Source: a virus | Direction: 5' to 3' (one strand) | Virus genome (UHGV): UHGV-0383422 | DNA: 40,660 nucleotides | In this document: piece after piece, positions 2,693-29,597 of the stretch | Layout of the letters: each line of letters opens with the position of its first letter | How positions within the stretch are numbered: the first letter of the stretch is position 1 | The notes under the pieces: model-generated | What the model was told of the DNA's origin: nothing | Database searches by the model: none | Seen by the model: only the letters and a program-made list of their open reading frames with translations | Program-made: the position numbers and the translations under genes

Positions 2693-2990
2693 GTTTAGAC
2701 CTCGATACTTTAAAAATTTGAACGACGTTACCGCGCGTTTTAATAACCGCAGCCAGCATGACAGCGTTGATAATGACCTCAGATAAATCCACAGCCATTG
2801 GCGTACGTAACCAGATTGCATAGGCGACTCGAACAGGAATACTGGCCGCAGCAACAATCAGGAAATAAGCAAGCCATCCTCCCCACCTTCGATGTTGAGA
2901 GCCGTTACGCCGGAATGTGACAACGCGAATTGCTATGCCAGTGCAAATAACTGCATTGGTGATAAGCAAAAAAAACTCATGCGTTACCAT
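2682..2990 (-). CDS. second holin-like / lysis-accessory membrane protein
   Basis: 102 aa with about three hydrophobic helices; sits between holin and endolysin with overlapping ends. Confidence 0.5.
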
Positions 2991-3381
2991 CGTCTTTTCT
3001 CCCCGGAATTAACTCGCGTGGATTATCGGAACGGTGATAGAGCCATATACCAATACGCACAGCGACAATTGCTGACACGAATGCGCCTGCAGAGAAAACA
3101 ATCCCTTTTTCAAAAGAGTCCTGCGTGATGGTAGGGATCAGGCTGGCTATGCCGATAAGAATTGATGCTGCTGGTTTGTAAAAGAGAAGGCCGCAAAGAA
3201 AGCTGAGCATCGACAGGAGCACCCGGCGACGGATGGGGTACTCTACTGCAGAGGTAACAAAAATTACCGCCCCAGCCAAAGCCCCTAAAGCAACCTCCGG
3301 AGGGGCACCTGCAATAACCGCAGCAAGAGAACTAAAACTAAGCAACTGATTTAATTGCTCACTTGTTACTTGAGCAGACAT
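2977..3381 (-). CDS. holin-like membrane protein
   Basis: 134 aa, multiple transmembrane segments, charged C-terminus; first gene of lysis cassette; AGGAGAAAGT Shine-Dalgarno upstream. Confidence 0.6.
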   Translation of the reverse strand: MSAQVTSEQLNQLLSFSSLAAVIAGAPPEVALGALAGAVIFVTSAVEYPIRRRVLLSMLSFLCGLLFYKPAASILIGIASLIPTITQDSFEKGIVFSAGAFVSAIVAVRIGIWLYHRSDNPRELIPGRKDDGNA

Positions 3382-3662: not shown

Positions 3663-3689
3663 CCCGCAAAATATTGCGGGCTTTTTTTT
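3663..3689 (+). terminator. intrinsic-terminator-like hairpin oriented for plus-strand transcription, at the tailspike 3' end
   Basis: Stem CCCGCAA/TTGCGGG followed by eight T on the plus strand; on the minus strand the hairpin is preceded, not followed, by the T/A run. Confidence 0.45.
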
Positions 3690-6600
3690 AACGTTCTTCC
3701 AGAGACTGAATCCGCTCTTTTATCTTATCCATTTCTCTGCGCTGCCATGCTGCCTCGATATAGAATAAGAGATCAGGTCTGACCCCCCATCTAGATCCTG
3801 CTGGCGTTATTTCAACGCGCTCAATGATGTCTTCCATTACCATCACTGGATTATCATCCTCATCAACAATGATGCTCCCGTCATTATCAGTCAGCGGCAT
3901 TTCCCTTTGGCCAGTAATGACGTCATCATATACTGCGGGATAATCGTCATAGCAAAGAAAGGCATAGCGGCATGTTGTGCTTTCTTCTTCCATGAGTCCG
4001 TGAGAAATAAGAACATCACGAAGTTGCTGCGCGATTACACCATGATGTATCCTCGCCCCTTCTTCCCCCTTTATAGCGACAGCGTTCAGCCATTTATAAG
4101 CGATATACCTGACGTCACCCCAGGCATCCAGCAATGCTTCGTCAGGAGAGACCGGCTCTGTCTTTAATGTTCCGTCACTGGTAACCACAGGATTGGAGCC
4201 AAGATAAACTGTCGAGAACCTGTTTCCCGGACCACCAAGAGCATTTACATTATCAAGATAAGGTTTAACATCTCCGTTCTCAAAAAGATGTTCGAGTGCG
4301 TTATATACCGCGCGACGTGGAGTACTGCTTCCGGAACCATGCAACGTTATCATTGCACCATCTGCTGAAGACGTTGTTTCACCGCCGCTAACGATTAATC
4401 TCTGAGCGGTAACATCATCAGACGGTACTTTCTTCGCAATAATGGCGTAATTACCCTCAAGTTTGACTTCCGCGCGAACTTGTCCTGATGTACCTGCATG
4501 GACAGTCAGTGACTGGACGGCAACATCATCTGTGAAATCAACGGGTACAGGAACCGTCCTCACGCCTGACGTCGACATAAAAGTAGGAAGCGTTCTGTTA
4601 GGAGTGGCTCCGTAGACAAAATCCCTTGAAACAAATTCTTCCTGTTTAATTTTCACCCTGAAACAATACAAATCAGCCGGGTGACCATCGTGAACATAAG
4701 GATATTTTCTGTTGTTATCCCCTATGCTCCATGGGTTTAGAAAGTCTTCCCCACCGAAAATGTAGTACAGCCAGTTGTCTTTGATACAAACTGAACCAAC
4801 ACCAACTGCAGAGTTAACTATTCCGCCCTGATAAATCTGATCAGTAACATTAACCCACTCTACATTATCCAGACTCCACTCATTGACGTTAACTCTGGTC
4901 ATAAATGTTCTTGGATAATTTCCTGCATAACGGTTATCAGGTTCTCCTCCTTCCCACTCACCAAATGCGCGCTCACTGCCAAAAATAATCAGCTCATCGC
5001 CAACTTTGGCAAAAGGAAGGTTTGAGTGATGAACATTATTTGGGAAGCGAAGAGAATTCCATGATGTACCTAAATCAGAGCTTCTGTGCAATGAACTACC
5101 GGGTTGAGTACTTAATGTCCCCCTGGTCGTCAGATACAGAATGCCATCATAATATTTTACACATGGCTCAGATGCATTCGCCTCATATTCTGCAGGTATG
5201 CGTCTGCGAACAAAGCTACCAGGAGAACCGAAAGCATCAGAGAAATAGAGTATCCCAAGCTCGCGTGGACCAATATCACCATTATGGTAGCCAACAGCAA
5301 AACTGTTATCGCTAATCGTCGCAAAACTGTGAATCTCAGTAACAGGAGTGCTTCCGTCAACAAAAGAAGGAATAGTTCCAAGACTGGTTTTTCTCCATGG
5401 TGACGAGTGAAATGATGTACCAAAACTCCAGTATCTACCCTCGTTATTCTGATCCACATCCTGGGTATTTTGCGTCGTAACTGTAAAAGTATTTTTATCA
5501 ATAACAGTAGTCACCGTCATATTCCCGGTAACACCTGTAACACCAGAGTTTGAGAAGTTGACAAAATCACCAGCAAATAATCCGTGATCAGTAATGCGAA
5601 TATAAGCGACTTGCTGATTTGCTGCTTTCGTTATACCACCATAAGCGCGAAGGCTGCGACTCATTGGGCGATCCCACAACTCTGCAACCTGCAGTTTATT
5701 TCCGCTCACGGTCCGCGTCTCAATTACAGCAAAAAGGCGATTTCTGACAACCCCCATACTCATGCAGTGATAGTTAACTGTGGGATAGTTTTCATGTAAA
5801 TCTGTAAGCCATTCCGGCGTTGTCCAGGTCTTCCCGTCATCTCCTGAGCGAACCCATGCAACATGGAGGTTATTTACACCATGGCGGTCTCCAGCCATAA
5901 AAGGCGCATAGATGACATTGTCATATACAAACGTTTTATCCTGCGTCCAGGCGTTGTACCACGGTGTATCTGTAATTTTAAATAACTCTCCCTGGATAAA
6001 ATCTTCAGAAGCATAAAAAAGAGGCTGGCCCGGTATTCTCTCAAATAAAAAACGAGCATTTTTAAATCGACTGACATCCGGAAGAGTTGATACTTTAAAA
6101 GTAAGCCCTAATCCGTCAATTTTATAACCTGGAGATGAGGCTTCAAGGCACGCGCTTATTGCAGTGGAATCGTCATTTATACCATCACCAACAGCTCCAA
6201 AATCTTTGGGGCTAATAGCATCACGCATTTTATCCTGGAACGTTCGGTACACAGCCCCAGAACCATACTGAATAAACCAACCAAAACCACCAACAACCCC
6301 GGCGATTGCAGCATCGACATAATTACGCATTGAGCGATTATTTACAGCGTCCTGCTCAAATGATGGATCTGCAAGGTTAGAAATTTTGTTTTGCTTTGCA
6401 TCGTAATATTTTGCAAGCAAAGATGGTTTCATCAATGCACGTCTGAACCACCCAAAACATTGCTGGATCAGCATCGTCAGGTAGTCAAAGGCATCTTCAT
6501 GCACTTCGGGGAAAAATTTTCCCTGATTGCGAAGGTCTGTCTCCTGCACTACATCAAGCACACGATCTATCGTAATTCGCCATCCAGTAGCAAGCGGAGA

Positions 6601-6807
6601 CGGAAGAACCACAGAACCGCCACTATAAGTGCCCGCCCCAGTTACCGTATAACCGGTATCCAGAACCAATTCTGTTACGTTTCCGTTCAGGTCAGACACC
6701 TGAACAACCAGGTCTGATTTTCTGAAAATTCGAAAAGTATACGGAAACGATGTCGTAACGCCGTTACCAGTGTATTCGTTGTGGTCAACTTCGGTTGAGA
6801 CCGTCAT
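3688..6807 (-). CDS. tailspike, endosialidase-like (endo-N-acetylneuraminidase) with C-terminal intramolecular chaperone domain
   Basis: 1039 aa; N-terminal particle-binding-like domain; sialidase Asp-boxes (SGDDGKTW, SSDLGTSW); C-terminal region (LGSNPVVTSDG...RIHHGVIAQQLRD...) resembles self-cleaving chaperone domains of endosialidase tailspikes (recollection, not searched). Confidence 0.8.
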   Translation of the reverse strand: MTVSTEVDHNEYTGNGVTTSFPYTFRIFRKSDLVVQVSDLNGNVTELVLDTGYTVTGAGTYSGGSVVLPSPLATGWRITIDRVLDVVQETDLRNQGKFFPEVHEDAFDYLTMLIQQCFGWFRRALMKPSLLAKYYDAKQNKISNLADPSFEQDAVNNRSMRNYVDAAIAGVVGGFGWFIQYGSGAVYRTFQDKMRDAISPKDFGAVGDGINDDSTAISACLEASSPGYKIDGLGLTFKVSTLPDVSRFKNARFLFERIPGQPLFYASEDFIQGELFKITDTPWYNAWTQDKTFVYDNVIYAPFMAGDRHGVNNLHVAWVRSGDDGKTWTTPEWLTDLHENYPTVNYHCMSMGVVRNRLFAVIETRTVSGNKLQVAELWDRPMSRSLRAYGGITKAANQQVAYIRITDHGLFAGDFVNFSNSGVTGVTGNMTVTTVIDKNTFTVTTQNTQDVDQNNEGRYWSFGTSFHSSPWRKTSLGTIPSFVDGSTPVTEIHSFATISDNSFAVGYHNGDIGPRELGILYFSDAFGSPGSFVRRRIPAEYEANASEPCVKYYDGILYLTTRGTLSTQPGSSLHRSSDLGTSWNSLRFPNNVHHSNLPFAKVGDELIIFGSERAFGEWEGGEPDNRYAGNYPRTFMTRVNVNEWSLDNVEWVNVTDQIYQGGIVNSAVGVGSVCIKDNWLYYIFGGEDFLNPWSIGDNNRKYPYVHDGHPADLYCFRVKIKQEEFVSRDFVYGATPNRTLPTFMSTSGVRTVPVPVDFTDDVAVQSLTVHAGTSGQVRAEVKLEGNYAIIAKKVPSDDVTAQRLIVSGGETTSSADGAMITLHGSGSSTPRRAVYNALEHLFENGDVKPYLDNVNALGGPGNRFSTVYLGSNPVVTSDGTLKTEPVSPDEALLDAWGDVRYIAYKWLNAVAIKGEEGARIHHGVIAQQLRDVLISHGLMEEESTTCRYAFLCYDDYPAVYDDVITGQREMPLTDNDGSIIVDEDDNPVMVMEDIIERVEITPAGSRWGVRPDLLFYIEAAWQRREMDKIKERIQSLEER

Positions 6808-7266: not shown

Positions 7267-7284
7267 AGGCCGCAAGAGCGGCCT
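7267..7284. terminator. hairpin between convergent genes (possible bidirectional terminator)
   Basis: Stem AGGCCGC/GCGGCCT with AAGA loop; T-rich flanks on both sides. Confidence 0.45.
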
Positions 7285-8011
7285 ATCGTTTCGCTTTGTG
7301 CTCGTCCCAGCACGTTTTGCACCATGCCATTAAGCCGTCCGCATTTTGATTATTAGGGTAAAAGCTGGTCCGTTTTCTGCGGACATTACAAATTGGGCAC
7401 CACTTCATATGGCGTGTATTCTTTGGGCCATCGAGACACCTTGCACACCACTTAGTCAATCCATCTGGATTTTTTGACGATTTCCGGAATTTGTCATATG
7501 GAAGGTTTATTCTGCATCGCAAACACTGCTTGCGGCCACTTGAAACTCTGTTAGCTGATTCTTCTTTTGGCGGCGATACAGAAGGTATTCTTGCTGGCTC
7601 TGATACTGCCTGAGGTGCTTTTTTAGATGACTGAGACGATATGTCATCACCAGGGAATCTTCCATGATATGCCGGACGCATTGATACTCCAGGTGGAAGC
7701 TCAGCTGTAAACGGCTTTGGCTGAATCAGTTGCCTCTCTTTTGCTAACTCCTGCTGTTTACAATATGTCTGGATTACCGCACTATCATAAGCAGGAGGTG
7801 CGGAAATATTAGGCGCATTACCTCCAGTTTTTTGAAACTGAGTAGAGGTGTGTTCTATCACCTGTGTACGATTAATCGTTATCTCCCCATCTTCGGTCTT
7901 TATCGTTTTGTTATGATTAACGACCGTACGATCAGAGATCTTAGTCTTGTTCTGGTTGATAACGTAAATAATCACCGCAACCACACCAACAACTATCCAG
8001 AAAACTTCCAT
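7283..8011 (-). CDS. membrane-anchored protein with C-terminal tandem Cys4 zinc-ribbon repeats (function unknown)
   Basis: 242 aa; N-terminal transmembrane helix; two approx 30-aa repeats each CxxC...DGL..WC..C; GAGGAA Shine-Dalgarno. Confidence 0.65.
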   Translation of the reverse strand: MEVFWIVVGVVAVIIYVINQNKTKISDRTVVNHNKTIKTEDGEITINRTQVIEHTSTQFQKTGGNAPNISAPPAYDSAVIQTYCKQQELAKERQLIQPKPFTAELPPGVSMRPAYHGRFPGDDISSQSSKKAPQAVSEPARIPSVSPPKEESANRVSSGRKQCLRCRINLPYDKFRKSSKNPDGLTKWCARCLDGPKNTRHMKWCPICNVRRKRTSFYPNNQNADGLMAWCKTCWDEHKAKR

Positions 8012-8047: not shown

Positions 8048-8408
8048 ATCTTGCTTTCAGGTGATCAAGCGTTAAACGCCACCAACCAAATACGGTTGAT
8101 TTTGATATTTCTCCGCGTTTATCATTACCTTTGCGGTAAATTTACATCGCACTCCTCTTGTGCCATAGTAATCGGGCACTGGCAAAATCCAGTGCCGGGA
8201 TTGGCGTCCCGGGTTACTAAGTGGCGCATACCACGCCAGACGTGGTTTTTTTATGCGTTAAGCACAGCTATATCCGAATTATGGTGGGCTGGGCAGGGGT
8301 CCGAAAGGACGCCGGTACCACTTAGGCCGGTACGCCAACCTTGTCCAGTTCACCACCAGTAATTGGCGTTGCGGTGGTGATTAAAATCACTAAGTGGAGA
8401 TAACCACC

Positions 8409-9119
8409 ATGGCTAATGCTCAAACTTCCATCTTCAAATTTGAATCTGTTAACCCTATCCGTTCCATCATTATCGATGGCCAACCATGGTTTGTAGCCCA
8501 AGACGTTTGTAGTGCGCTGCGTATCCAAAACGTCACCCAAGCACTTGAAAAACTGGATGATGATGAAAGGTCTATGTTCAACATAGGGCATGAACATCGT
8601 GCAATTTTTGACAGCCGAGTAAAAGAGATCAACATCATCTCCGAGTCAGGCCTCTACACACTGATCCTCCGCTGCCGCGACGCAGTGACACCAGGCACTA
8701 TCCCCTACCGCTTTCGTAAATGGGTTACGGGTGAGGTTCTTCCTCAGATCCGCCGCACCGGAAGCTACATTAAAAACTCGCTCCCGCAGGAAGAACGCAT
8801 AAAGATGGTTGCCGACCAGGTGGCCAACGCCACGGCGTCAGCAGTAATGCAGGCGATGAAGATAGAGAACAAAACCTACAGCGCCCCACTGAATCCCGGC
8901 TACCGCAGCCTGATTCATTCGCCGTCTGGTGTTCTCGGCCTGACGGAGAACTCACTGCTGATGAATCTGCTGAACCAGTTACAGGACGACGGGCACGACG
9001 TATCGGGCGCGGCGGCGGAGCTGACCACCATGTTCTGCTACATCGTCGGTGTGAGCAAATGCCTGCGTGATATCCAGACCCACGCGGAATACATCAACGA
9101 CAAGGCAGGGTTCTTCTGA
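8409..9119 (+). CDS. Bro-N domain antirepressor-like protein
   Basis: 236 aa from ATG at 8409 with GGAGA Shine-Dalgarno; N-terminal Bro-N/KilA-N-like region; C-terminal domain homologous to the 7003-7260 product. Confidence 0.7.
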   Translation: MANAQTSIFKFESVNPIRSIIIDGQPWFVAQDVCSALRIQNVTQALEKLDDDERSMFNIGHEHRAIFDSRVKEINIISESGLYTLILRCRDAVTPGTIPYRFRKWVTGEVLPQIRRTGSYIKNSLPQEERIKMVADQVANATASAVMQAMKIENKTYSAPLNPGYRSLIHSPSGVLGLTENSLLMNLLNQLQDDGHDVSGAAAELTTMFCYIVGVSKCLRDIQTHAEYINDKAGFF

Positions 9120-9218: not shown

Positions 9219-9386
9219 ATGACAGCGTTGAAAAATCGTACTCAGCACAATGAACAAGCCAAGCAATGCTGGGATGTCATTGGAAAAGTTATGCTTGGCC
9301 GCGCAAGCAAAGAGCGCGACAAGGATATGGTTTACCAGACAGGAACATCTTTCAGCGACTTCAAGGCGGCATTTCGCTCCAAATAG
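9219..9386 (+). CDS. hypothetical small protein (55 aa)
   Basis: ATG with strong AAAGGAGG Shine-Dalgarno; hydrophilic; not in the supplied track (below 60 aa); overlaps the N-terminal extension of listed ORF 9266-9847, which I reject. Confidence 0.55.
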   Translation: MTALKNRTQHNEQAKQCWDVIGKVMLGRASKERDKDMVYQTGTSFSDFKAAFRSK

Positions 9387-9406
9387 AAGCACATCAGGAG
9401 TTTTCC

Positions 9407-9847
9407 TTGAAGTTTAACATTAGAATATCTAATAGTTTTCTACATGGGGAAAGCAACACCCCTTTCGCTGTAGACGGACCTTTCCTTACTGATGATGAAA
9501 TAAAAATCATACAAAGTTTTTTAGAGGATGTTGCCAATGGAAGGGCGCTTGTTGGAAAAAACAAGCCCTCGTGGGTTGATGATAACCATGATAAAATTCC
9601 CGGCTCAGACAATTATGAGCAAGAGAATTATTGGCATTATCATTGTGGGCCAACATGGTATCCAAACACATTTAAGAATTATACCATTAACTTAAATTTC
9701 AACCCTGGCGGAAGGCATTCTAATGAATGCATTCATTATGCAAAAAATGATAATGAAATTGTCATTGTTGGATTTTCAAGAGAACACATACCTTTCCTTT
9801 CATCAGATGGAAACAACAATCCGCTTTTTAATGATGAAGAAGAATAG
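9407..9847 (+). CDS. hypothetical protein, AT-rich accessory gene (about 146 aa)
   Basis: Same frame as listed ORF 9266-9847, but start placed at in-frame TTG 9407 six nt after AGGAG; no in-frame ATG in the AT-rich part; sharp drop in GC from about 9400; terminator follows. Confidence 0.5.
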   Translation: MKFNIRISNSFLHGESNTPFAVDGPFLTDDEIKIIQSFLEDVANGRALVGKNKPSWVDDNHDKIPGSDNYEQENYWHYHCGPTWYPNTFKNYTINLNFNPGGRHSNECIHYAKNDNEIVIVGFSREHIPFLSSDGNNNPLFNDEEE

Positions 9848-9867
9848 CCCGCGCTGCGGGCTTTTTT
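9847..9867 (+). terminator. rho-independent terminator
   Basis: Stem GCCCGC/GCGGGC with GCT loop followed by TTTTTT. Confidence 0.75.
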
Positions 9868-9939
9868 GTGGACGAAACAAAAGTCAGTGCTACACTCATT
9901 GACGCCACATTGAGGTGGCTTATAGATGGAAATTTCACA

Positions 9940-10101
9940 ATGAAAAAAGCATTTGCTGCACTGTTCGTTTTGTTGTCTCTGGTAGCTTCAACTCAGGCCT
10001 TTGCCGGTCGTTGTCAGCACGACAGCGACACTGCTGCTGACGGCTCCCGCTGCGGTGGGCGTTCTGCGGACTCCCGTCCGGGCGGCGGTGGCATTCGTTA
10101 A
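9940..10101 (+). CDS. small secreted peptide (signal peptide plus approx 31-aa Cys-containing mature part)
   Basis: MKKAFAALFVLLSLVASTQAFA signal-like N-terminus, then GRCQHDSDTAADGSRCGG...; internal Met chosen because the longer form overlaps the upstream terminator. Confidence 0.45.
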   Translation: MKKAFAALFVLLSLVASTQAFAGRCQHDSDTAADGSRCGGRSADSRPGGGGIR

Positions 10102-10123
10102 AAACAAGGCCGCGAAAGCGGCC
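10096..10123 (-). terminator. hairpin terminator for the minus-strand structural operon
   Basis: Stem GGCCGC/GCGGCC with GAAA loop (10108-10123); T-run on the minus strand. Confidence 0.55.
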
Positions 10124-10124
10124 T

Positions 10125-10136
10125 GTGACATGTCAC
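10125..10136. repeat. 12-bp perfect palindrome GTGACATGTCAC (copy 1 of 3)
   Basis: Exact palindrome between convergent accessory genes and the ejection operon. Confidence 0.6.
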
Positions 10137-10143
10137 GCTCACG

Positions 10144-10284
10144 TTATGACAAGCCTATGTACCCTGCTACACCAGATAATATCATAATAACTGCAACAGC
10201 AAATTCGCCATCGTCAATGATACATTTACGGTTCATAACGCCAAGTGCAACAAGCGCAAACACAACAAGAATAAAAGCAATCAT
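10144..10284 (-). CDS. small hydrophobic membrane peptide (46 aa)
   Basis: MIAFILVVFALVALGVMNRKCIIDDGEFAVAVIMILSGVAGYIGLS; AAGGATGAG Shine-Dalgarno; just downstream of the 824-aa ejection-protein gene; not in supplied track. Confidence 0.45.
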   Translation of the reverse strand: MIAFILVVFALVALGVMNRKCIIDDGEFAVAVIMILSGVAGYIGLS

Positions 10285-10293
10285 TTCTCATCC

Positions 10294-12768
10294 TTATTGC
10301 GGAGTGACATCCTGTGGTCGCCACCAGTATGTCTGGTTAAACTCTTTCTTCGAACGTTGCTCCATTTTACGCAAATAACCTGGTGAAAAATACTCCTGCA
10401 TCTGGTTAAAGATCATGTGATCGAGAGCCGCCTTCAAGTACCAGAGATTCGCACCTGGCATCAGACCTTTCCCCAGCTTAACCAGATCACCACCAGTCTG
10501 CTCACTCTTCCCTTCCACAGCATTTAACGGTATGCCCTGAGCAATCTTCACTACGTCATCAACCAGACCAGCTACCGGGCCAAGCATCGACGCCAGCGCG
10601 CCGCTTCCGTACCTAGTGTGATCTGACAATAAAAAGTCACCGTAAAGGCCAAGACCACCACCTTTCAGTAGAGCACCAAGCCAAAATTTAGCAGCATCTT
10701 CTCCTGTCATCTCGCGAGGATTACGACCAGACGCAAGGTCGTTAAGTTGCTGCGACAAAGCGCCAAGAATGGTCGTACTGGCAATAAACGTCGCAATATA
10801 TGCCGCACGCCCACCAGCAGACGGCATACCCATAGCGCGTGACCAGTGACGCATAACCACCGAGATAGGGAACGATTTAAACAGGAAAACACTTCTCGTT
10901 AATTCACCTTTCCATGTTCCACGCTGAATACCAGAACCGGTTATCAGTTGCTCACGTGCTCCCGGTGTAATAACAGCCATATCAACTTCTTCAGTTACGG
11001 CACCGAGCAGTTTACGCATTGCCTCAAATTTCACGCGTTCAGGCTCACCAAGATGTTTAACTGCTGAATCAGGGATACGCATAATGCTTTCCGGTGTCAG
11101 CATCGTATTATTACCGTTCCCCCAGTCCTCCTGTTTCGCCAGCTTCCATACGCTCCAGTCTGTGTCAGTAATCCCTTTGCTTTTCAGGATACGAAAATCA
11201 GAGTCATCGAGGCTACGAAGGTCTGGTGTACGTGACACTACTTCTCCCAGGCTTCCCATCATGGTTACGCCATAGGCGCGCTTGTGCGCATCTGACCATG
11301 CTGTAAGCCCACTGGCACGCATTACCGCCGTTGCCGCCCAACGAGACACTGACGGCCCCATATTATCCATCGCCCAGCGGTTAACGCTGCCAAGTAGAGA
11401 TTCCATCGCCAGACCAGCGCGGCGCGCCCGCGCAAGTTCTGTACGGTTCGTTGGGTCCATAGCTTCAAGCTGGTTGCGGAATAACTGGTTCATTGGAAGG
11501 TTGGTAACCTTCGCAGACAGATACATGGTTCCAAGATCAGAGAACGATGACAGCAACGCGGATCCGAGTCTGCTGGCAACCAGCCAGTTGCGGATATTGT
11601 CAGACCATCGCGCGATGTGCGGATTCGCTACAGGCTGTGTCTTTCCGGAAATAAAGTTGTACAGATTCTCTGTGTTGTTCGCCAGCCGCTCGACTTTACC
11701 GGTTTTACTCGGGTTAGCTGTTGCCGTTTCTGCCTTCACCTGATCAAGAAGAGAGCGGAAAACATGATCGGGGTTTGGGCCATATGTTTCCACCAGTGCA
11801 ATATCTTTACTGATACCTTCCAGGTGACCGACCATGATTTCCCATAGAGAGCGATCGCCATAAAGTTGCTGATATTGCAGATAGGAATCTGCATCTTTGA
11901 AATGTATCTGTCGTGATGCATTACCACGGTTAGCACGTGCGCCGGAAATTCGCATTCCGGTATCAGTAAGCTTATTCAGCCCACCAGTAGCGATCGTGTT
12001 ATAAGCCTCTCCAAGAAATGAAGACAACTCGGCATCGTTCATCAGTTGTCCATCGGCTCGGATATAATATTTGCGATCCAGCTTACCTATAACATCGCTA
12101 ACCCACTTATCCTTTGATACTGCCCCAACCTTTTCCATAGAATGATGTTGAGGGATCCCCCAGTTTTCGAGATAGCCAATGTCCCCACCAGCATCATTAA
12201 ACCGGCGGCGCAGCAGCTCTGTAACTTCTCTCCACGCCTTAGCACCGTTTCTTGCTTTAGCATTGCCAGTATTTTGCCCCCGCATTTCATATACCAGGTC
12301 ACGTACGCCCGCTTCATCTTCAAACAGACCAAAAAAGCGAGGATCAACTGCTTCGAATGCCTCCTGCAATTGACTCAATGCATAATCACGGGTGGCTTTT
12401 GTTCTGGATTCAACAGAGAGGAAATTAGATTTACCGTCTGCATTAAAAGCTATAGTACGGTTAAGAGCGCCAAGTTTCCCATCAGCCCCTTGATAGCTAT
12501 TGATAAATTTATCCAATCTCTGACGCGCGGCTATAGTGAGAGCCACACGACGTTTCTTTAATGCCGCTTCTCGCTGTAATTCTTCAGATGCCAATTGTGC
12601 TGCTCGATATAGCCGCTCTGATTCGGAAAGTTGTCTCCACGACATCGGGTCATCACGAGCAATGGAGCGCATATTTCGATAAATGCGGTCTTCAATGTTC
12701 TGTATTTCTCGCGCCGTTAACGTGCGCTGCGCCGCCTGCTGGACCGCTTGTATACATTCCTGTCTCAT
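10294..12768 (-). CDS. internal virion / DNA-ejection protein (large)
   Basis: 824 aa; last of three consecutive large genes at the distal end of the morphogenesis operon. Confidence 0.6.
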   Translation of the reverse strand: MRQECIQAVQQAAQRTLTAREIQNIEDRIYRNMRSIARDDPMSWRQLSESERLYRAAQLASEELQREAALKKRRVALTIAARQRLDKFINSYQGADGKLGALNRTIAFNADGKSNFLSVESRTKATRDYALSQLQEAFEAVDPRFFGLFEDEAGVRDLVYEMRGQNTGNAKARNGAKAWREVTELLRRRFNDAGGDIGYLENWGIPQHHSMEKVGAVSKDKWVSDVIGKLDRKYYIRADGQLMNDAELSSFLGEAYNTIATGGLNKLTDTGMRISGARANRGNASRQIHFKDADSYLQYQQLYGDRSLWEIMVGHLEGISKDIALVETYGPNPDHVFRSLLDQVKAETATANPSKTGKVERLANNTENLYNFISGKTQPVANPHIARWSDNIRNWLVASRLGSALLSSFSDLGTMYLSAKVTNLPMNQLFRNQLEAMDPTNRTELARARRAGLAMESLLGSVNRWAMDNMGPSVSRWAATAVMRASGLTAWSDAHKRAYGVTMMGSLGEVVSRTPDLRSLDDSDFRILKSKGITDTDWSVWKLAKQEDWGNGNNTMLTPESIMRIPDSAVKHLGEPERVKFEAMRKLLGAVTEEVDMAVITPGAREQLITGSGIQRGTWKGELTRSVFLFKSFPISVVMRHWSRAMGMPSAGGRAAYIATFIASTTILGALSQQLNDLASGRNPREMTGEDAAKFWLGALLKGGGLGLYGDFLLSDHTRYGSGALASMLGPVAGLVDDVVKIAQGIPLNAVEGKSEQTGGDLVKLGKGLMPGANLWYLKAALDHMIFNQMQEYFSPGYLRKMEQRSKKEFNQTYWWRPQDVTPQ

Positions 12769-24089: not shown

Positions 24090-24382
24090 TCCTGTTCACT
24101 GGCCTCTTTGGCCATCTTCAAATACTGTTCAGGGCAATGCGCCATAACGCGCTGAAACAGTTCCAGCGCCAGATTGCGTTGCCCCTCATTAAATGCCATT
24201 GCCATAGCATCCATCGGAGAGATAGCGGAAAACACCCGGCCTTTCTCCAGCACCGACCAGACAACGCGACGCCCCTGTTCACTGCTCATGACAAAGCGAA
24301 TGTCATCAATTTCACGCTGTGCCATGTCACGTTGCTTACGGGCGTTTTCTTCTTTCAGTTGATCGTCTTCGAAATCTGTCAT
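24086..24382 (-). CDS. hypothetical head-morphogenesis protein
   Basis: 98 aa; coupled between portal and scaffold. Confidence 0.5.
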   Translation of the reverse strand: MTDFEDDQLKEENARKQRDMAQREIDDIRFVMSSEQGRRVVWSVLEKGRVFSAISPMDAMAMAFNEGQRNLALELFQRVMAHCPEQYLKMAKEASEQE

Positions 24383-27320: not shown

Positions 27321-27332
27321 GTGACATGTCAC
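27321..27332. repeat. 12-bp perfect palindrome GTGACATGTCAC (copy 2 of 3)
   Basis: Exact palindrome four nt after the stop of 26984-27316. Confidence 0.6.
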
Positions 27333-29585: not shown

Positions 29586-29597
29586 GTGACATGTCAC
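29586..29597. repeat. 12-bp perfect palindrome GTGACATGTCAC (copy 3 of 3)
   Basis: Exact palindrome between the upstream gene stop and the small-terminase start region. Confidence 0.6.

What the first reader, a model, noticed from the sequence alone, without database searches (positions are those of the whole stretch)
9940..10284. Small secreted Cys-containing peptide convergent with a 46-aa hydrophobic membrane peptide
A 53-aa ORF with a convincing signal-peptide-like N-terminus yields a 31-residue Gly/Ser/Asp-rich mature peptide with two Cys. It faces a 46-aa, almost entirely hydrophobic peptide encoded at the 3' end of the ejection-protein operon. Between them lie a GAAA-loop hairpin and palindrome copy 1. 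Such small membrane or secreted peptides at this position may act in superinfection exclusion or signalling.
Basis: inference. Interest (0 to 1): 0.4.

Follow-up and report, generated by a model that had tools for sequence, protein, structure and literature searches.

The report
Two unrelated small phage envelope genes
Both small ORFs are real, conserved genes of an epsilon15/phiV10-like E. coli prophage, one for an exported disulfide-loop mini-protein and one for a tiny two-helix membrane protein, but they are inherited independently, are not a pair, and have no known function.

Summary
ORF-A (9940-10101, +, 53 aa) and ORF-B (10144-10284, -, 46 aa) face each other across a GGCCGC-GAAA-GCGGCC hairpin and a 12-bp palindrome. 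Both are real genes: they are RefSeq-annotated, match PHROG families full-length, and are under purifying selection.

They are not a functional pair. Only 7 of 51 ORF-B-carrying loci also carry ORF-A. ORF-A is in about 10% of complete E. coli genomes and ORF-B in about 1%.

ORF-A looks like an autonomous moron, with a conserved extended -10 element and a covarying 5'-UTR hairpin. It encodes a Sec-type signal peptide plus a 31-aa mature peptide. Its core, C-x4-D-x-A-x-DGSRCG-x-R-[SA]-x3-RPGG, defines a widespread family (473 cluster representatives). The family spans Enterobacterales, Rhizobiales and cyanobacteria. It has no Pfam, NCBIfam, PDB or fold match.

ORF-B is the last cistron of the late ejection-protein operon. 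Related phages carry unrelated small hydrophobic proteins in exactly the same slot (57 aa, 41 aa, epsilon15 gp18).

Superinfection exclusion is positionally plausible, because P22 sieA lies at the analogous place, but it is untested. Overall: ordinary phage accessory genes, with one moderately interesting uncharacterized family.

The parts
9846..9862 (+). Rho-independent terminator (AGCCCGCGCTGCGGGCT + TTTTTT) that ends the upstream 146-aa gene. It insulates ORF-A from upstream transcription.
   Evidence: the same element is present in TL-2011b
9869..9896 (+). Inferred ORF-A promoter: -35-like TGGACG (9869-9874), a 16-nt spacer, and an extended -10 TGC-TACACT (9888-9896).
   Evidence: The TAnnnT signature is nearly invariant at a fixed distance in 15 upstream regions from 10 or more genera. 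The strict sigma-70 scan did not flag it, so this part is inferred.
9904..9919 (+). 5'-UTR stem-loop GCCAC-ATTGAG-GTGGC at the predicted 5' end of the ORF-A mRNA.
   Evidence: RNAalifold predicts 4 pairs, and all 4 show compensatory double changes among the 13 sequences. It is in the centroid fold. The signal is modest.
9940..10005 (+). ORF-A signal peptide (22 codons: MKK / AFAALFVLLSLVA / STQAFA).
   Evidence: The h-region varies while the A-x-A|G site is conserved in homologues. Signal-peptide pN/pS is 0.31 against 0.15 for the mature part.
10006..10101 (+). ORF-A mature 31-aa peptide plus stop codon. The conserved core is C25-x4-D30-x-A32-x-D34-G-S-R-C38-G-G-R41-S-A-D-S-R46-P-G-G49.
   Evidence: Alignments. 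473 cluster representatives. AF2 block-mean pLDDT is 74-83 for residues 21-40 with a 50-sequence alignment.
10099..10124 (-). Late-operon rho-independent terminator: stem AGGCCGC/GCGGCCT (10107-10124), loop UUUC on the minus strand, and a TTGTTTTT tail (10106-10099) that overlaps the ORF-A stop codon.
   Evidence: Annotated as a terminator in phiV10. The stem is kept while the loop varies in related phages.
10125..10136 (.). 12-bp perfect palindrome GTGACATGTCAC, lying between the ORF-B stop codon and the terminator.
   Evidence: It is kept exactly at this position in 41 of 51 related loci, and most of the remaining 10 carry it displaced or with one mismatch. It is invariant in the alignment.
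10144..10284 (-). ORF-B, 46 aa: TM1 (2-17), loop NRKCIIDDGE, TM2 (28-46). It belongs to phrog_7892 and corresponds to PhiV10p21.
10285..10296 (-). Junction between the 824-aa gene stop codon (TAA, 10296-10294) and the ORF-B start. The 9-nt spacer GGATGAGAA contains an AAGGA Shine-Dalgarno sequence.
   Evidence: Read from the sequence. The same 9-nt spacing is seen in all intact E. coli ORF-B loci, and 8-10 nt for the alternative small ORFs.
10294..12768 (-). 824-aa virion structural / ejection protein gene (phrog_684; homologue of PhiV10p20 and epsilon15 gp17). ORF-B follows it as the last cistron of the operon.

Best explanation
The window is an epsilon15/phiV10-like (Uetakevirus) E. coli prophage. 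The two small ORFs are independent genes that happen to abut the same terminator.

ORF-A is a self-contained accessory gene (moron). An upstream terminator isolates it. A conserved extended -10 promoter and a 5'-terminal mRNA hairpin drive it, most likely also in the lysogen (inferred). Its product would be exported by Sec and cut by signal peptidase I after AFA22. The released 31-aa peptide is hydrophilic and periplasmic, and its two invariant cysteines (C25, C38) probably form one disulfide-closed loop (inferred). It belongs to a large, uncharacterized family of stand-alone exported mini-proteins or domains and has no dedicated partner gene. It therefore most likely works alone, by binding some general periplasmic or envelope target. 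My committed guess, with low certainty, is that in prophages it protects the lysogen at the periplasmic step of phage DNA delivery, like T4 Spackle.

ORF-B is the terminal cistron of the late ejection-protein operon. It is translated from an AAGGA site 9 nt after the stop codon of the 824-aa gene. It would insert into the inner membrane as a two-helix hairpin with its basic NRK loop end facing the cytoplasm (inferred). It occupies a slot that almost every relative fills with some small hydrophobic protein of unrelated sequence. The slot therefore supplies a generic late-infection inner-membrane function, and a specific partnership with ORF-A or with the 824-aa protein is unlikely.

The confidence given applies to the anatomy (two real, independent, envelope-targeted genes; a moron and a late-operon terminal cistron). 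The specific biological roles are much less certain, at about 0.2 each.
For: Identity of the window:
- Uetakevirus matches and synteny with phiV10 and epsilon15.

Both ORFs are coding:
- Full-length PHROG hits and RefSeq CDS calls.
- ORF-B dN/dS is 0.15-0.29, with 38 of 51 loci keeping the intact 46-codon ORF.
- In the ORF-A mature region there are 14-21 synonymous against 1-11.5 non-synonymous differences; pooled pN/pS is 0.15.

The two ORFs are independent:
- ORF-A is present in only 7 of 51 ORF-B loci.
- Among 80 phages whose 824-aa protein C-terminal 368 residues are at least 95% identical, ORF-A accompanies all three slot cassettes. It is rarest with ORF-B: 2 of the 29 intact ORF-B loci (3 of 31 counting a frameshifted copy and a divergent variant), against 20 of 41 and 7 of 8 for the other two.
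- The ORF-A cassette is in 537 of 5426 complete E. coli genomes; ORF-B is in 54 of 5426.
- phiV10 keeps only the last ~25 nt of ORF-A, a deletion remnant.

ORF-A is autonomous:
- Upstream terminator, conserved TAnnnT/-10 element and SD region, covarying hairpin.
- Constant ORF-A is flanked by variable genes on both sides in 10 distinct contexts, and it also occurs in the P22-like phage TL-2011b.

ORF-A family breadth and lack of partners:
- 57 loci in species-representative genomes across phyla and 473 cluster representatives.
- No conserved neighbour gene.
- The domain is also fused at the N- or C-termini of larger exported proteins.

ORF-B slot:
- A small hydrophobic ORF starts 8-10 nt after the big gene in essentially all E. 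coli relatives examined: the 46-48-aa family, a 57-aa GTG/TTG-start family, or a 41-aa ORF.
- The 57-aa family is itself under purifying selection, with omega 0.07-0.17.
- epsilon15 gp18 (64 aa, 2 TM) sits in the same place.
- hhalign detects no homology among these families.
Against: - No dedicated signal-peptide or TM predictor could be run, so cleavage and topology rest on rules and conservation only.
- The strict promoter scan found no sigma-70 site upstream of ORF-A.
- ORF-A has no U-tract terminator of its own.
- No expression data exist for either gene.
- The Spackle-like role for ORF-A is pure analogy. The family's presence in non-phage chromosomal contexts of Rhizobiales and cyanobacteria argues for a more general function than anti-phage protection.
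- ORF-B lacks its own promoter, so it is probably silent in lysogens. That argues against classical prophage superinfection exclusion.
- One relative (Pantoea, L011) has no small hydrophobic ORF in the slot. Other relatives carry signal-peptide proteins there instead.
Confidence: 0.6

Rival explanations
1. The two ORFs form a functional pair, for example a Sec-exported microcin-like Gly/Cys peptide (ORF-A) with a small membrane immunity protein (ORF-B), or a secreted ligand with its membrane receptor.
For: They are adjacent and convergent. The peptide is small, Gly/Ser-rich and has two Cys, and it lies next to a small 2-TM protein. That resembles class II bacteriocin/immunity layouts (the comparison is from general knowledge).
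Against: - Independent assortment: ORF-A is in 7 of 51 ORF-B loci, and ORF-A occurs with three different slot cassettes.
- A tenfold difference in prevalence.
- The ORF-A family occurs alone, without any conserved neighbour, in 57 genomes.
- It has a Sec-type leader and not a double-glycine leader.
- No exporter gene is nearby.
- The two genes are in different transcription units and probably expressed at different times.
Confidence: 0.04
2. Both genes are superinfection-exclusion genes expressed from the prophage. ORF-A would act in the periplasm and ORF-B in the inner membrane to block DNA entry of related phages.
For: - P22 sieA is convergent with the last ejection gene at the analogous map position.
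- The slot and its surroundings are filled only with envelope-targeted proteins in relatives.
- ORF-A has its own promoter-like elements.
Against: - No homology to SieA and no PADLOC hit.
- ORF-B has no upstream promoter and is coupled to a late structural gene.
- ORF-A homologues exist in non-prophage contexts across phyla.
Confidence: 0.2
3. ORF-A is a host-fitness (lysogenic conversion) factor unrelated to phages: a periplasmic binding module, for example for a divalent cation via its D-x-A-x-D-G loop, or a ligand or modulator of a periplasmic sensor domain (signalling).
For: - Wide distribution outside phages, plus fusion to other exported or membrane proteins.
- An extremely conserved acidic/basic core.
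- About 10% prevalence in E. coli genomes.
Against: - No match to Excalibur, EF-hand, MgrB or any other Pfam/NCBIfam model at E<=1.
- The central Asp of a DxDxDG motif is an invariant Ala.
- No structural match.
- No partner gene points to a pathway.
Confidence: 0.25
4. ORF-B and its positional analogues are needed for virion morphogenesis or for lysis timing, for example by handling the membrane-active ejection proteins in the producing cell. On this view they are not accessory cargo.
For: - A small hydrophobic ORF is present in nearly every relative, with conserved tight spacing or overlap to the last ejection gene.
- Two unrelated families in the slot are under purifying selection.
Against: - The cassettes are exchanged between phages whose 824-aa protein C-terminal 368 residues are 99-100% identical. 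There is therefore no co-adaptation with that protein.
- One relative lacks such an ORF.
- A frameshifted copy exists (L111).
- The lysis cassette lies elsewhere in epsilon15.
Confidence: 0.25

Closest known systems
P22 SieA (superinfection exclusion A)
   Same: It is encoded convergently to the end of the ejection-protein operon, next to the immI/ant region, has its own promoter and is an envelope protein. This is the same map position as ORF-A.
   Different: SieA is a 164-aa polytopic inner-membrane protein. hhalign detects no similarity to ORF-A or ORF-B. ORF-A is a 31-aa soluble exported peptide.
T4 Spackle (Sp) and T4 Imm (comparison from general knowledge)
   Same: Spackle is a small signal-peptide-bearing periplasmic protein that blocks entry of superinfecting phage. 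Imm is a small 2-TM inner-membrane protein. These two topologies parallel ORF-A and ORF-B.
   Different: No sequence relationship. The only T4_Spackle hit was a sub-threshold match (E 0.065) to the signal peptide of one homologue. T4 is virulent and expresses these genes early. No phenotype is known here.
epsilon15 gp18 (phrog_29212) and the unannotated 57-aa and 41-aa ORFs of related E. coli Uetakeviruses
   Same: Same slot immediately after (or overlapping) the last ejection gene and before the late terminator. All are small and hydrophobic with 1-2 TM segments.
   Different: No detectable homology to ORF-B. These are positional and topological analogues, not members of the same family.
Classic phage morons (lambda bor/lom, HK97 gp15; from general knowledge)
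   Same: A promoter-gene-terminator unit inserted between conserved modules, variably present among close relatives, and encoding an envelope protein.
   Different: ORF-A is much smaller and is neither a lipoprotein nor a membrane protein. Its family extends far beyond phages.
epsilon15 gp22 alpha-polymerase inhibitor / Pseudomonas D3 Iap (small hydrophobic serotype-conversion peptides)
   Same: These are small 1-2-TM phage peptides in the same phage group.
   Different: No homology to ORF-B. ORF-B is not next to a wzy-like gene and sits in a late operon.

Membership tests
Sec/SPase-I cleaved signal peptide (ORF-A) | Basic n-region, a 10-15-residue hydrophobic h-region, and small residues at -3/-1 (A-x-A) | tested here: met
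   MKK / AFAALFVLLSLVA / STQ-A-F-A|G. A-x-A|G-like sites are kept across homologues while the h-region varies.
Sec/SPase-I cleaved signal peptide (ORF-A) | Positive call by a trained predictor (SignalP or similar), or experimental cleavage | not testable with these tools
   No such predictor or experimental data were available. The NCBI name 'transmembrane anchored protein' implies an uncleaved anchor, and this cannot be excluded.
Bacterial lipoprotein (ORF-A) | Lipobox [LVI][ASTVI][GAS]C at the end of the signal peptide | tested here: not met
   The sequence is ...AFAGRC. The Cys lies 3 residues past the A-x-A site, and this spacing is conserved in nearly all homologues.
phrog_14503 / 'transmembrane anchored protein' family (ORF-A) | Full-length profile match | tested here: met
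   E 2.3e-40 over residues 1-53 of a 53-residue profile. 57 database clusters at E<=0.01.
Phage moron (ORF-A) | Presence/absence polymorphism among otherwise near-identical phages, and occurrence in unrelated phage backbones | tested here: met
   also present in the P22-like phage TL-2011b.
Phage moron (ORF-A) | Own promoter and terminator; expression from the repressed prophage | tested here: inconclusive
   A conserved extended -10-like element and an upstream terminator are present. The strict scan found no promoter. The downstream hairpin has a U-tract only for the opposite strand. Expression cannot be tested here.
P22 SieA-type superinfection exclusion | Sequence homology to SieA | tested here: not met
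   hhalign probability below 1% for both ORFs.
P22 SieA-type superinfection exclusion | Exclusion phenotype in lysogens | not testable with these tools
   This needs plating and DNA-entry assays.
Known anti-phage defence proteins (PADLOC) | Match to a defence-system HMM | tested here: not met
   0 hits at E<=0.1 for ORF-A, ORF-B and five other proteins: four encoded nearby in the window and phiv142-3 Orf12.
Excalibur / DxDxDG calcium-binding domains (ORF-A) | Pfam Excalibur match and an intact D-x-D-x-D-G motif | tested here: not met
   No Pfam hit at E<=1 for ORF-A or 10 diverse homologues. The motif is D-x-A-x-D-G with an invariant Ala.
Class II microcin + immunity pair | Obligate linkage of the peptide gene and the immunity gene; double-glycine leader / ABC exporter | tested here: not met
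   Independent assortment. The leader is Sec-type. No exporter is among the neighbours.
phrog_7892 / PhiV10p21 (ORF-B) | Full-length profile match and the same genomic position | tested here: met
   E 1.1e-32 over residues 1-46 of a 46-residue profile. 95.7% identical to PhiV10p21 at the same position.
Two-TM helical-hairpin inner-membrane protein (ORF-B) | Two hydrophobic segments of at least 15 residues separated by a short polar loop | tested here: met
   The Kyte-Doolittle profile has two maxima (residues 1-17 and 26-46) and a minimum at 13-18 windows. The loop NRK-x-II-x-DGEF is nearly invariant. Topology was not tested.
Holin / type I toxin / Wzy inhibitor (ORF-B) | Family HMM match or a defining neighbour (endolysin; antisense RNA; wzy) | tested here: not met
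   The only Pfam hit is sub-threshold DUF5367 (E 0.025). No homology to epsilon15 gp22. The neighbours are the ejection gene and the terminator.

The most novel reading that the evidence does not exclude
The ORF-A core (C-x4-D-x-A-x-DGSRCG-x-R-[SA]-x3-RPGG) defines a new, phylogenetically broad class of exported disulfide-loop mini-domain. It spans Enterobacterales prophages, Rhizobiales, cyanobacteria, Vibrio and Bacteriovorax, both stand-alone and fused. It would have one specific conserved periplasmic target, and temperate podophages would have captured it as a lysogen-expressed factor, for example an inhibitor of the cell-wall-degrading or channel-forming step of phage DNA delivery, or a ligand of an envelope sensor. 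In parallel, the end of the Uetakevirus ejection operon would encode a functionally conserved but sequence-replaceable small inner-membrane hairpin protein.
Probability: 0.2. Interest if true: 0.6.

Novelty: new member of a known kind. Interest (0 to 1): 0.35.

Why it matters
If ORF-A acts in the periplasm of lysogens, it is a very common E. coli prophage cargo with an unknown effect on the host envelope or on phage susceptibility. It is in about 10% of complete genomes, and the exact protein is indexed in 18,473 blocks of the public-assembly collection. Its 25-residue core is conserved across phyla but absent from Pfam, NCBIfam and the PDB. A single biochemical characterization would therefore annotate hundreds of protein clusters.

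The ORF-B result is a concrete example of a phage gene slot conserved by position and topology but not by sequence. Homology-based annotation misses this kind of gene: the 57-aa GTG/TTG-start analogue is unannotated in phiv142-3, the one annotated phage record of this cassette examined, and is absent from PHROGs.

As it stands, neither gene changes any established picture.

Tried and rejected
- Pfam, NCBIfam and PADLOC scans of both ORFs, their neighbours and diverse homologues gave nothing above threshold.
- A PDB sequence-profile search and a Foldseek search of the AF2 model against the PDB gave zero hits.
- The first AF2 model, built from a shallow alignment, was poor (pLDDT 65). The deeper alignment gave 73.5 but no recognizable fold.
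- Literature searches for accessions, PHROG ids, 'transmembrane anchored protein' and motif strings found nothing. Papers on epsilon15, phiV10 and ZX5 do not treat these ORFs.
- An all-against-all comparison of ORFs across the 57 ORF-A loci found no recurrent partner gene apart from the phage ejection gene.
- Neighbours in alphaproteobacterial, cyanobacterial and Vibrio loci gave mixed results: a resolvase, a transposase-like HTH protein, a metabolic enzyme, or nothing.
- The longer 77-aa GTG-start reading of ORF-A (phrog_3117) was rejected. The upstream extension is not conserved in frame, and MKK is the universal start.
- The antisense 47-aa ORF (9988-10131, -) was rejected as the mirror image of ORF-A.
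- Homology of ORF-B to epsilon15 gp18, the 57-aa analogue, epsilon15 gp22 and SieA was rejected.
- One strong-looking representative hit, P0126 (805 aa, 11 stretches), is a Cys-rich repeat protein and a false positive for the family.
Full report
**Context**

The window is a Uetakevirus (epsilon15/phiV10-like) prophage of E. coli. Megablast of 9700-10500 hits phiv142-3, HEMP4, phiV10, the O157 typing phages and the Salmonella SPN1S group. A 100%-identical stretch lies in the chromosome of E. coli 04-00955.

The local gene order is as follows:
- tailspike, 3688-6807 (-)
- a 242-aa gene (-)
- a Bro-N/antirepressor-like gene, 8394-9119 (+)
- a 55-aa gene, 9219-9386 (+)
- a 146-aa gene, 9407-9847 (+)
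- ORF-A, 9940-10101 (+)
- then, convergently: ORF-B, 10144-10284 (-)
- the 824-aa virion/ejection protein gene, 10294-12768 (-), followed by further late genes

**Observation**

- ORF-A reads MKKAFAALFVLLSLVASTQAFA|GRCQHDSDTAADGSRCGGRSADSRPGGGGIR.
- ORF-B reads MIAFILVVFALVALGVMNRKCIIDDGEFAVAVIMILSGVAGYIGLS. It has two hydrophobic segments around a charged loop.
- The hairpin AGGCCGC-GAAA-GCGGCCT (10107-10124) has its T-run only on the minus strand. It is therefore the late-operon terminator, as annotated in phiV10.
- The palindrome GTGACATGTCAC (10125-10136) recurs at 27321 and 29586, and with one mismatch at 24319. That is 4 matches against 0.18 expected.

**Are they genes?**

Small ORFs are frequent by chance here, so conservation is the test.

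ORF-B:
- 42 database clusters from E. coli, Salmonella, Citrobacter and Hafnia.
- A nearly invariant loop NRK-x-II-x-DGEF.
- 38 of 51 IMG/VR loci keep the intact 46-codon ORF at the expected position. dN/dS is 0.15-0.29 at dS 0.24-0.57.

ORF-A:
- 57 clusters in many Enterobacterales.
- The signal peptide drifts, while G23-G49 is almost invariant.
- Against divergent alleles the mature region shows 14-21 synonymous but only 1-11.5 non-synonymous differences. Pooled pN/pS is 0.15, against 0.31 for the signal peptide.

Both ORFs match PHROGs full-length: phrog_14503 ('membrane associated protein', moron category) and phrog_7892. Both are RefSeq CDSs.

**Are they a pair?**

No.
- Only 7 of 51 ORF-B loci carry ORF-A.
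- collected 80 phages whose 824-aa protein is at least 95% identical over its C-terminal 368 residues. In these, the position after that gene holds one of three cassettes, and ORF-A accompanies all three:
  - ORF-B: about 30 loci (29 intact, 2 of them with ORF-A; 31 and 3 if a frameshifted copy and a divergent variant are counted).
  - A 57-aa GTG/TTG-start 2-TM ORF followed by a 98-aa 3-TM protein (phrog_3075): about 39 loci. This cassette makes up most of the 41 loci in which one search found no ATG-start ORF, and 20 of those 41 have ORF-A.
  - A 41-aa 1-TM ORF plus a 43-aa ORF plus a 131-aa lipoprotein: 8 loci, 7 with ORF-A.
- The ORF-A cassette is in 537 of 5426 complete E. coli genomes, and ORF-B is in 54.
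- phiV10 and many ORF-B phages retain only the last ~25 nt of ORF-A fused to the Bro-N gene end. This is a deletion scar.

**What ORF-A is**

ORF-A looks like an autonomous unit.
- A terminator (9846-9862) closes the upstream gene.
- TGC-TACACT (9888-9896) is an extended -10. Its TAnnnT signature is nearly invariant at a fixed distance in upstream regions from Enterobacter, Franconibacter, Rahnella, Kluyvera, Klebsiella, Rouxiella, Pectobacterium, Pantoea and Buttiauxella.
- Immediately downstream lies a short stem-loop (GCCAC/GTGGC, 9904-9919). All four of its pairs show compensatory changes.
- ORF-A stays constant while the genes on both sides vary. Upstream cargo includes DUF2335, DUF4760 and YafO-like genes. 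Downstream there are P22-type Ant or various slot genes. It is also present in the P22-like phage TL-2011b.

These are the properties of a moron. Expression in lysogens is inferred and not shown.

The ORF-A family is much wider than phages.
- A scan of one genome per species found 57 loci. They are in Enterobacterales, Tolumonas, Mesorhizobium, Rhizobium, Agrobacterium, Bradyrhizobium, Devosia, Methylobacterium, Microvirga, Nostocales and other cyanobacteria, Vibrio, Rhodoferax, Bacteriovorax and a myxobacterium.
- Nearly all are 46-60-aa precursors: a signal peptide followed by C-x4-D-[RT]-A-[SA]-DGSRCG-x-R-[SA]-x3-RPGG.
- A profile search of 1.84 billion cluster representatives gave 473 hits at E<=1e-3.
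- The module also occurs after the signal peptide or at the C-terminus of 100-300-aa exported or membrane proteins. A related 4-Cys variant, CPCPYN..NGSRCGGRSAYSRPGG, corresponds to phrog_27544.
- There is no hit in Pfam, NCBIfam, PADLOC, the PDB or Foldseek.
- Database names are only 'hypothetical' or 'transmembrane anchored protein'.
- No neighbour gene is conserved across loci.
- AF2 with a 50-sequence alignment gives block-mean pLDDT 74-83 for residues 21-40, a small knot with one beta-bridge.

The inference is that ORF-A encodes a stand-alone periplasmic binding module with one disulfide loop. Its target is unknown.

**What ORF-B is**

ORF-B is the last cistron of the late operon.
- Its ATG lies 9 nt after the TAA of the 824-aa gene, preceded by an AAGGA site.
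- The spacing is 9 nt in all intact E. coli copies.
- No promoter-like site lies upstream of it.

The slot is positionally conserved.
- The 57-aa and 41-aa ORFs start 8-9 nt after the same gene.
- epsilon15 gp18 (64 aa, 2 TM) and a 91-aa Buttiauxella protein overlap the gene's stop codon.
- The 57-aa family is conserved in E. coli, Kluyvera and Klebsiella with omega 0.07-0.17.
- None of these families is detectably homologous to ORF-B.
- More distant relatives carry signal-peptide proteins, or a Rap1a-like protein, in the same position.

The cassettes are swapped between phages whose 824-aa protein C-terminal 368 residues are 99-100% identical. A specific co-adapted partnership with that protein is therefore unlikely. 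The swap boundaries coincide with the 3' end of the gene on one side and the palindrome plus terminator on the other.

**Function**

Nothing here tests function.

Positional analogy with P22, where sieA is convergent with gene 16, makes exclusion a reasonable hypothesis for ORF-A. However, there is no homology to SieA, and the non-phage distribution of the family suggests a more general periplasmic role.

ORF-B is probably expressed late, so classical lysogen exclusion is less likely for it. A generic late inner-membrane function is the best reading: exclusion during the lytic cycle, handling of membrane-active ejection proteins, or fine-tuning of lysis.

A bacteriocin/immunity reading is excluded by the independent assortment of the two genes.

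**Verdict**

Both are ordinary small phage envelope genes that are already catalogued as hypotheticals. Two modestly interesting points came out of the work:
- ORF-A belongs to a broad, uncharacterized family of exported mini-domains.
- ORF-B sits in a slot conserved by position and topology but replaceable in sequence.

Noticed in passing
window 10125-10136, 27321-27332, 29586-29597 (exact); 24319-24330 (1 mismatch): The 12-bp perfect palindrome GTGACATGTCAC is strongly over-represented (4 matches against 0.18 expected). The first copy sits between the last late gene and the terminator. It is kept there exactly in 41 of 51 related loci, even where the hairpin loop or stem differs, and it also travels with ORF-A into the P22-like phage TL-2011b. 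Two other copies are intergenic near the terminase genes. It may be a protein-binding site or a recombination boundary.
   Followed up: partly
L001 (phiv142-3) 3744-3917 (-); also L007, L008 and about 39 IMG/VR loci: An unannotated 57-aa, 2-TM ORF with a GTG/TTG start begins 9 nt after the 824-aa gene. It is absent from PHROGs and from the phiv142-3 annotation, yet it is under purifying selection (omega 0.07-0.17) across E. coli, Kluyvera and Klebsiella.
   Followed up: yes
L002 (phiV10) about 2980-3005, aligned to window 10079-10101: phiV10 retains only the last ~25 nt (GGGIR-stop) of ORF-A, fused behind its Bro-N gene and PhiV10p22. This is a deletion scar showing that ORF-A was ancestral at this site.
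   Followed up: yes
window 9219-9847 and the equivalent positions in L196-L205: The cargo between the Bro-N gene and ORF-A is hypervariable among otherwise similar prophages. In this window it is a 55-aa gene (phrog_8607) plus a 146-aa gene (phrog_5954). Elsewhere it is DUF2335, DUF4760 or faintly YafO-like proteins. These may be defence or counter-defence cargo, but there are no PADLOC hits.
   Followed up: partly
L014 (Pantoea) 4405-4701 (-), next to an ORF-A homologue at 4998-5153: A 98-aa exported protein carries the related 4-Cys motif CACPFNSARNGSSCGRRSAWSKQGGYAPICY (phrog_27544, E 7e-24). It lies adjacent to an ORF-A homologue, which suggests a wider superfamily of exported Cys-loop modules.
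   Followed up: partly
L006 (Rahnella) 5185-5589 (-): In a related prophage the slot facing ORF-A holds a Rap1a-like (T6SS immunity family) periplasmic protein (Pfam E 4.7e-8).
   Followed up: no
window 7283-8011 (-): A 242-aa protein (phrog_6762) has C-terminal zinc-ribbon / endonuclease-VII-like and Lar-like weak matches. It lies between the tailspike and Bro-N genes.
   Followed up: no
window 9904-9919: The 5'-UTR stem-loop of ORF-A shows compensatory base changes across genera. It may act as an mRNA 5' stabilizer or as a regulatory hairpin.
   Followed up: partly
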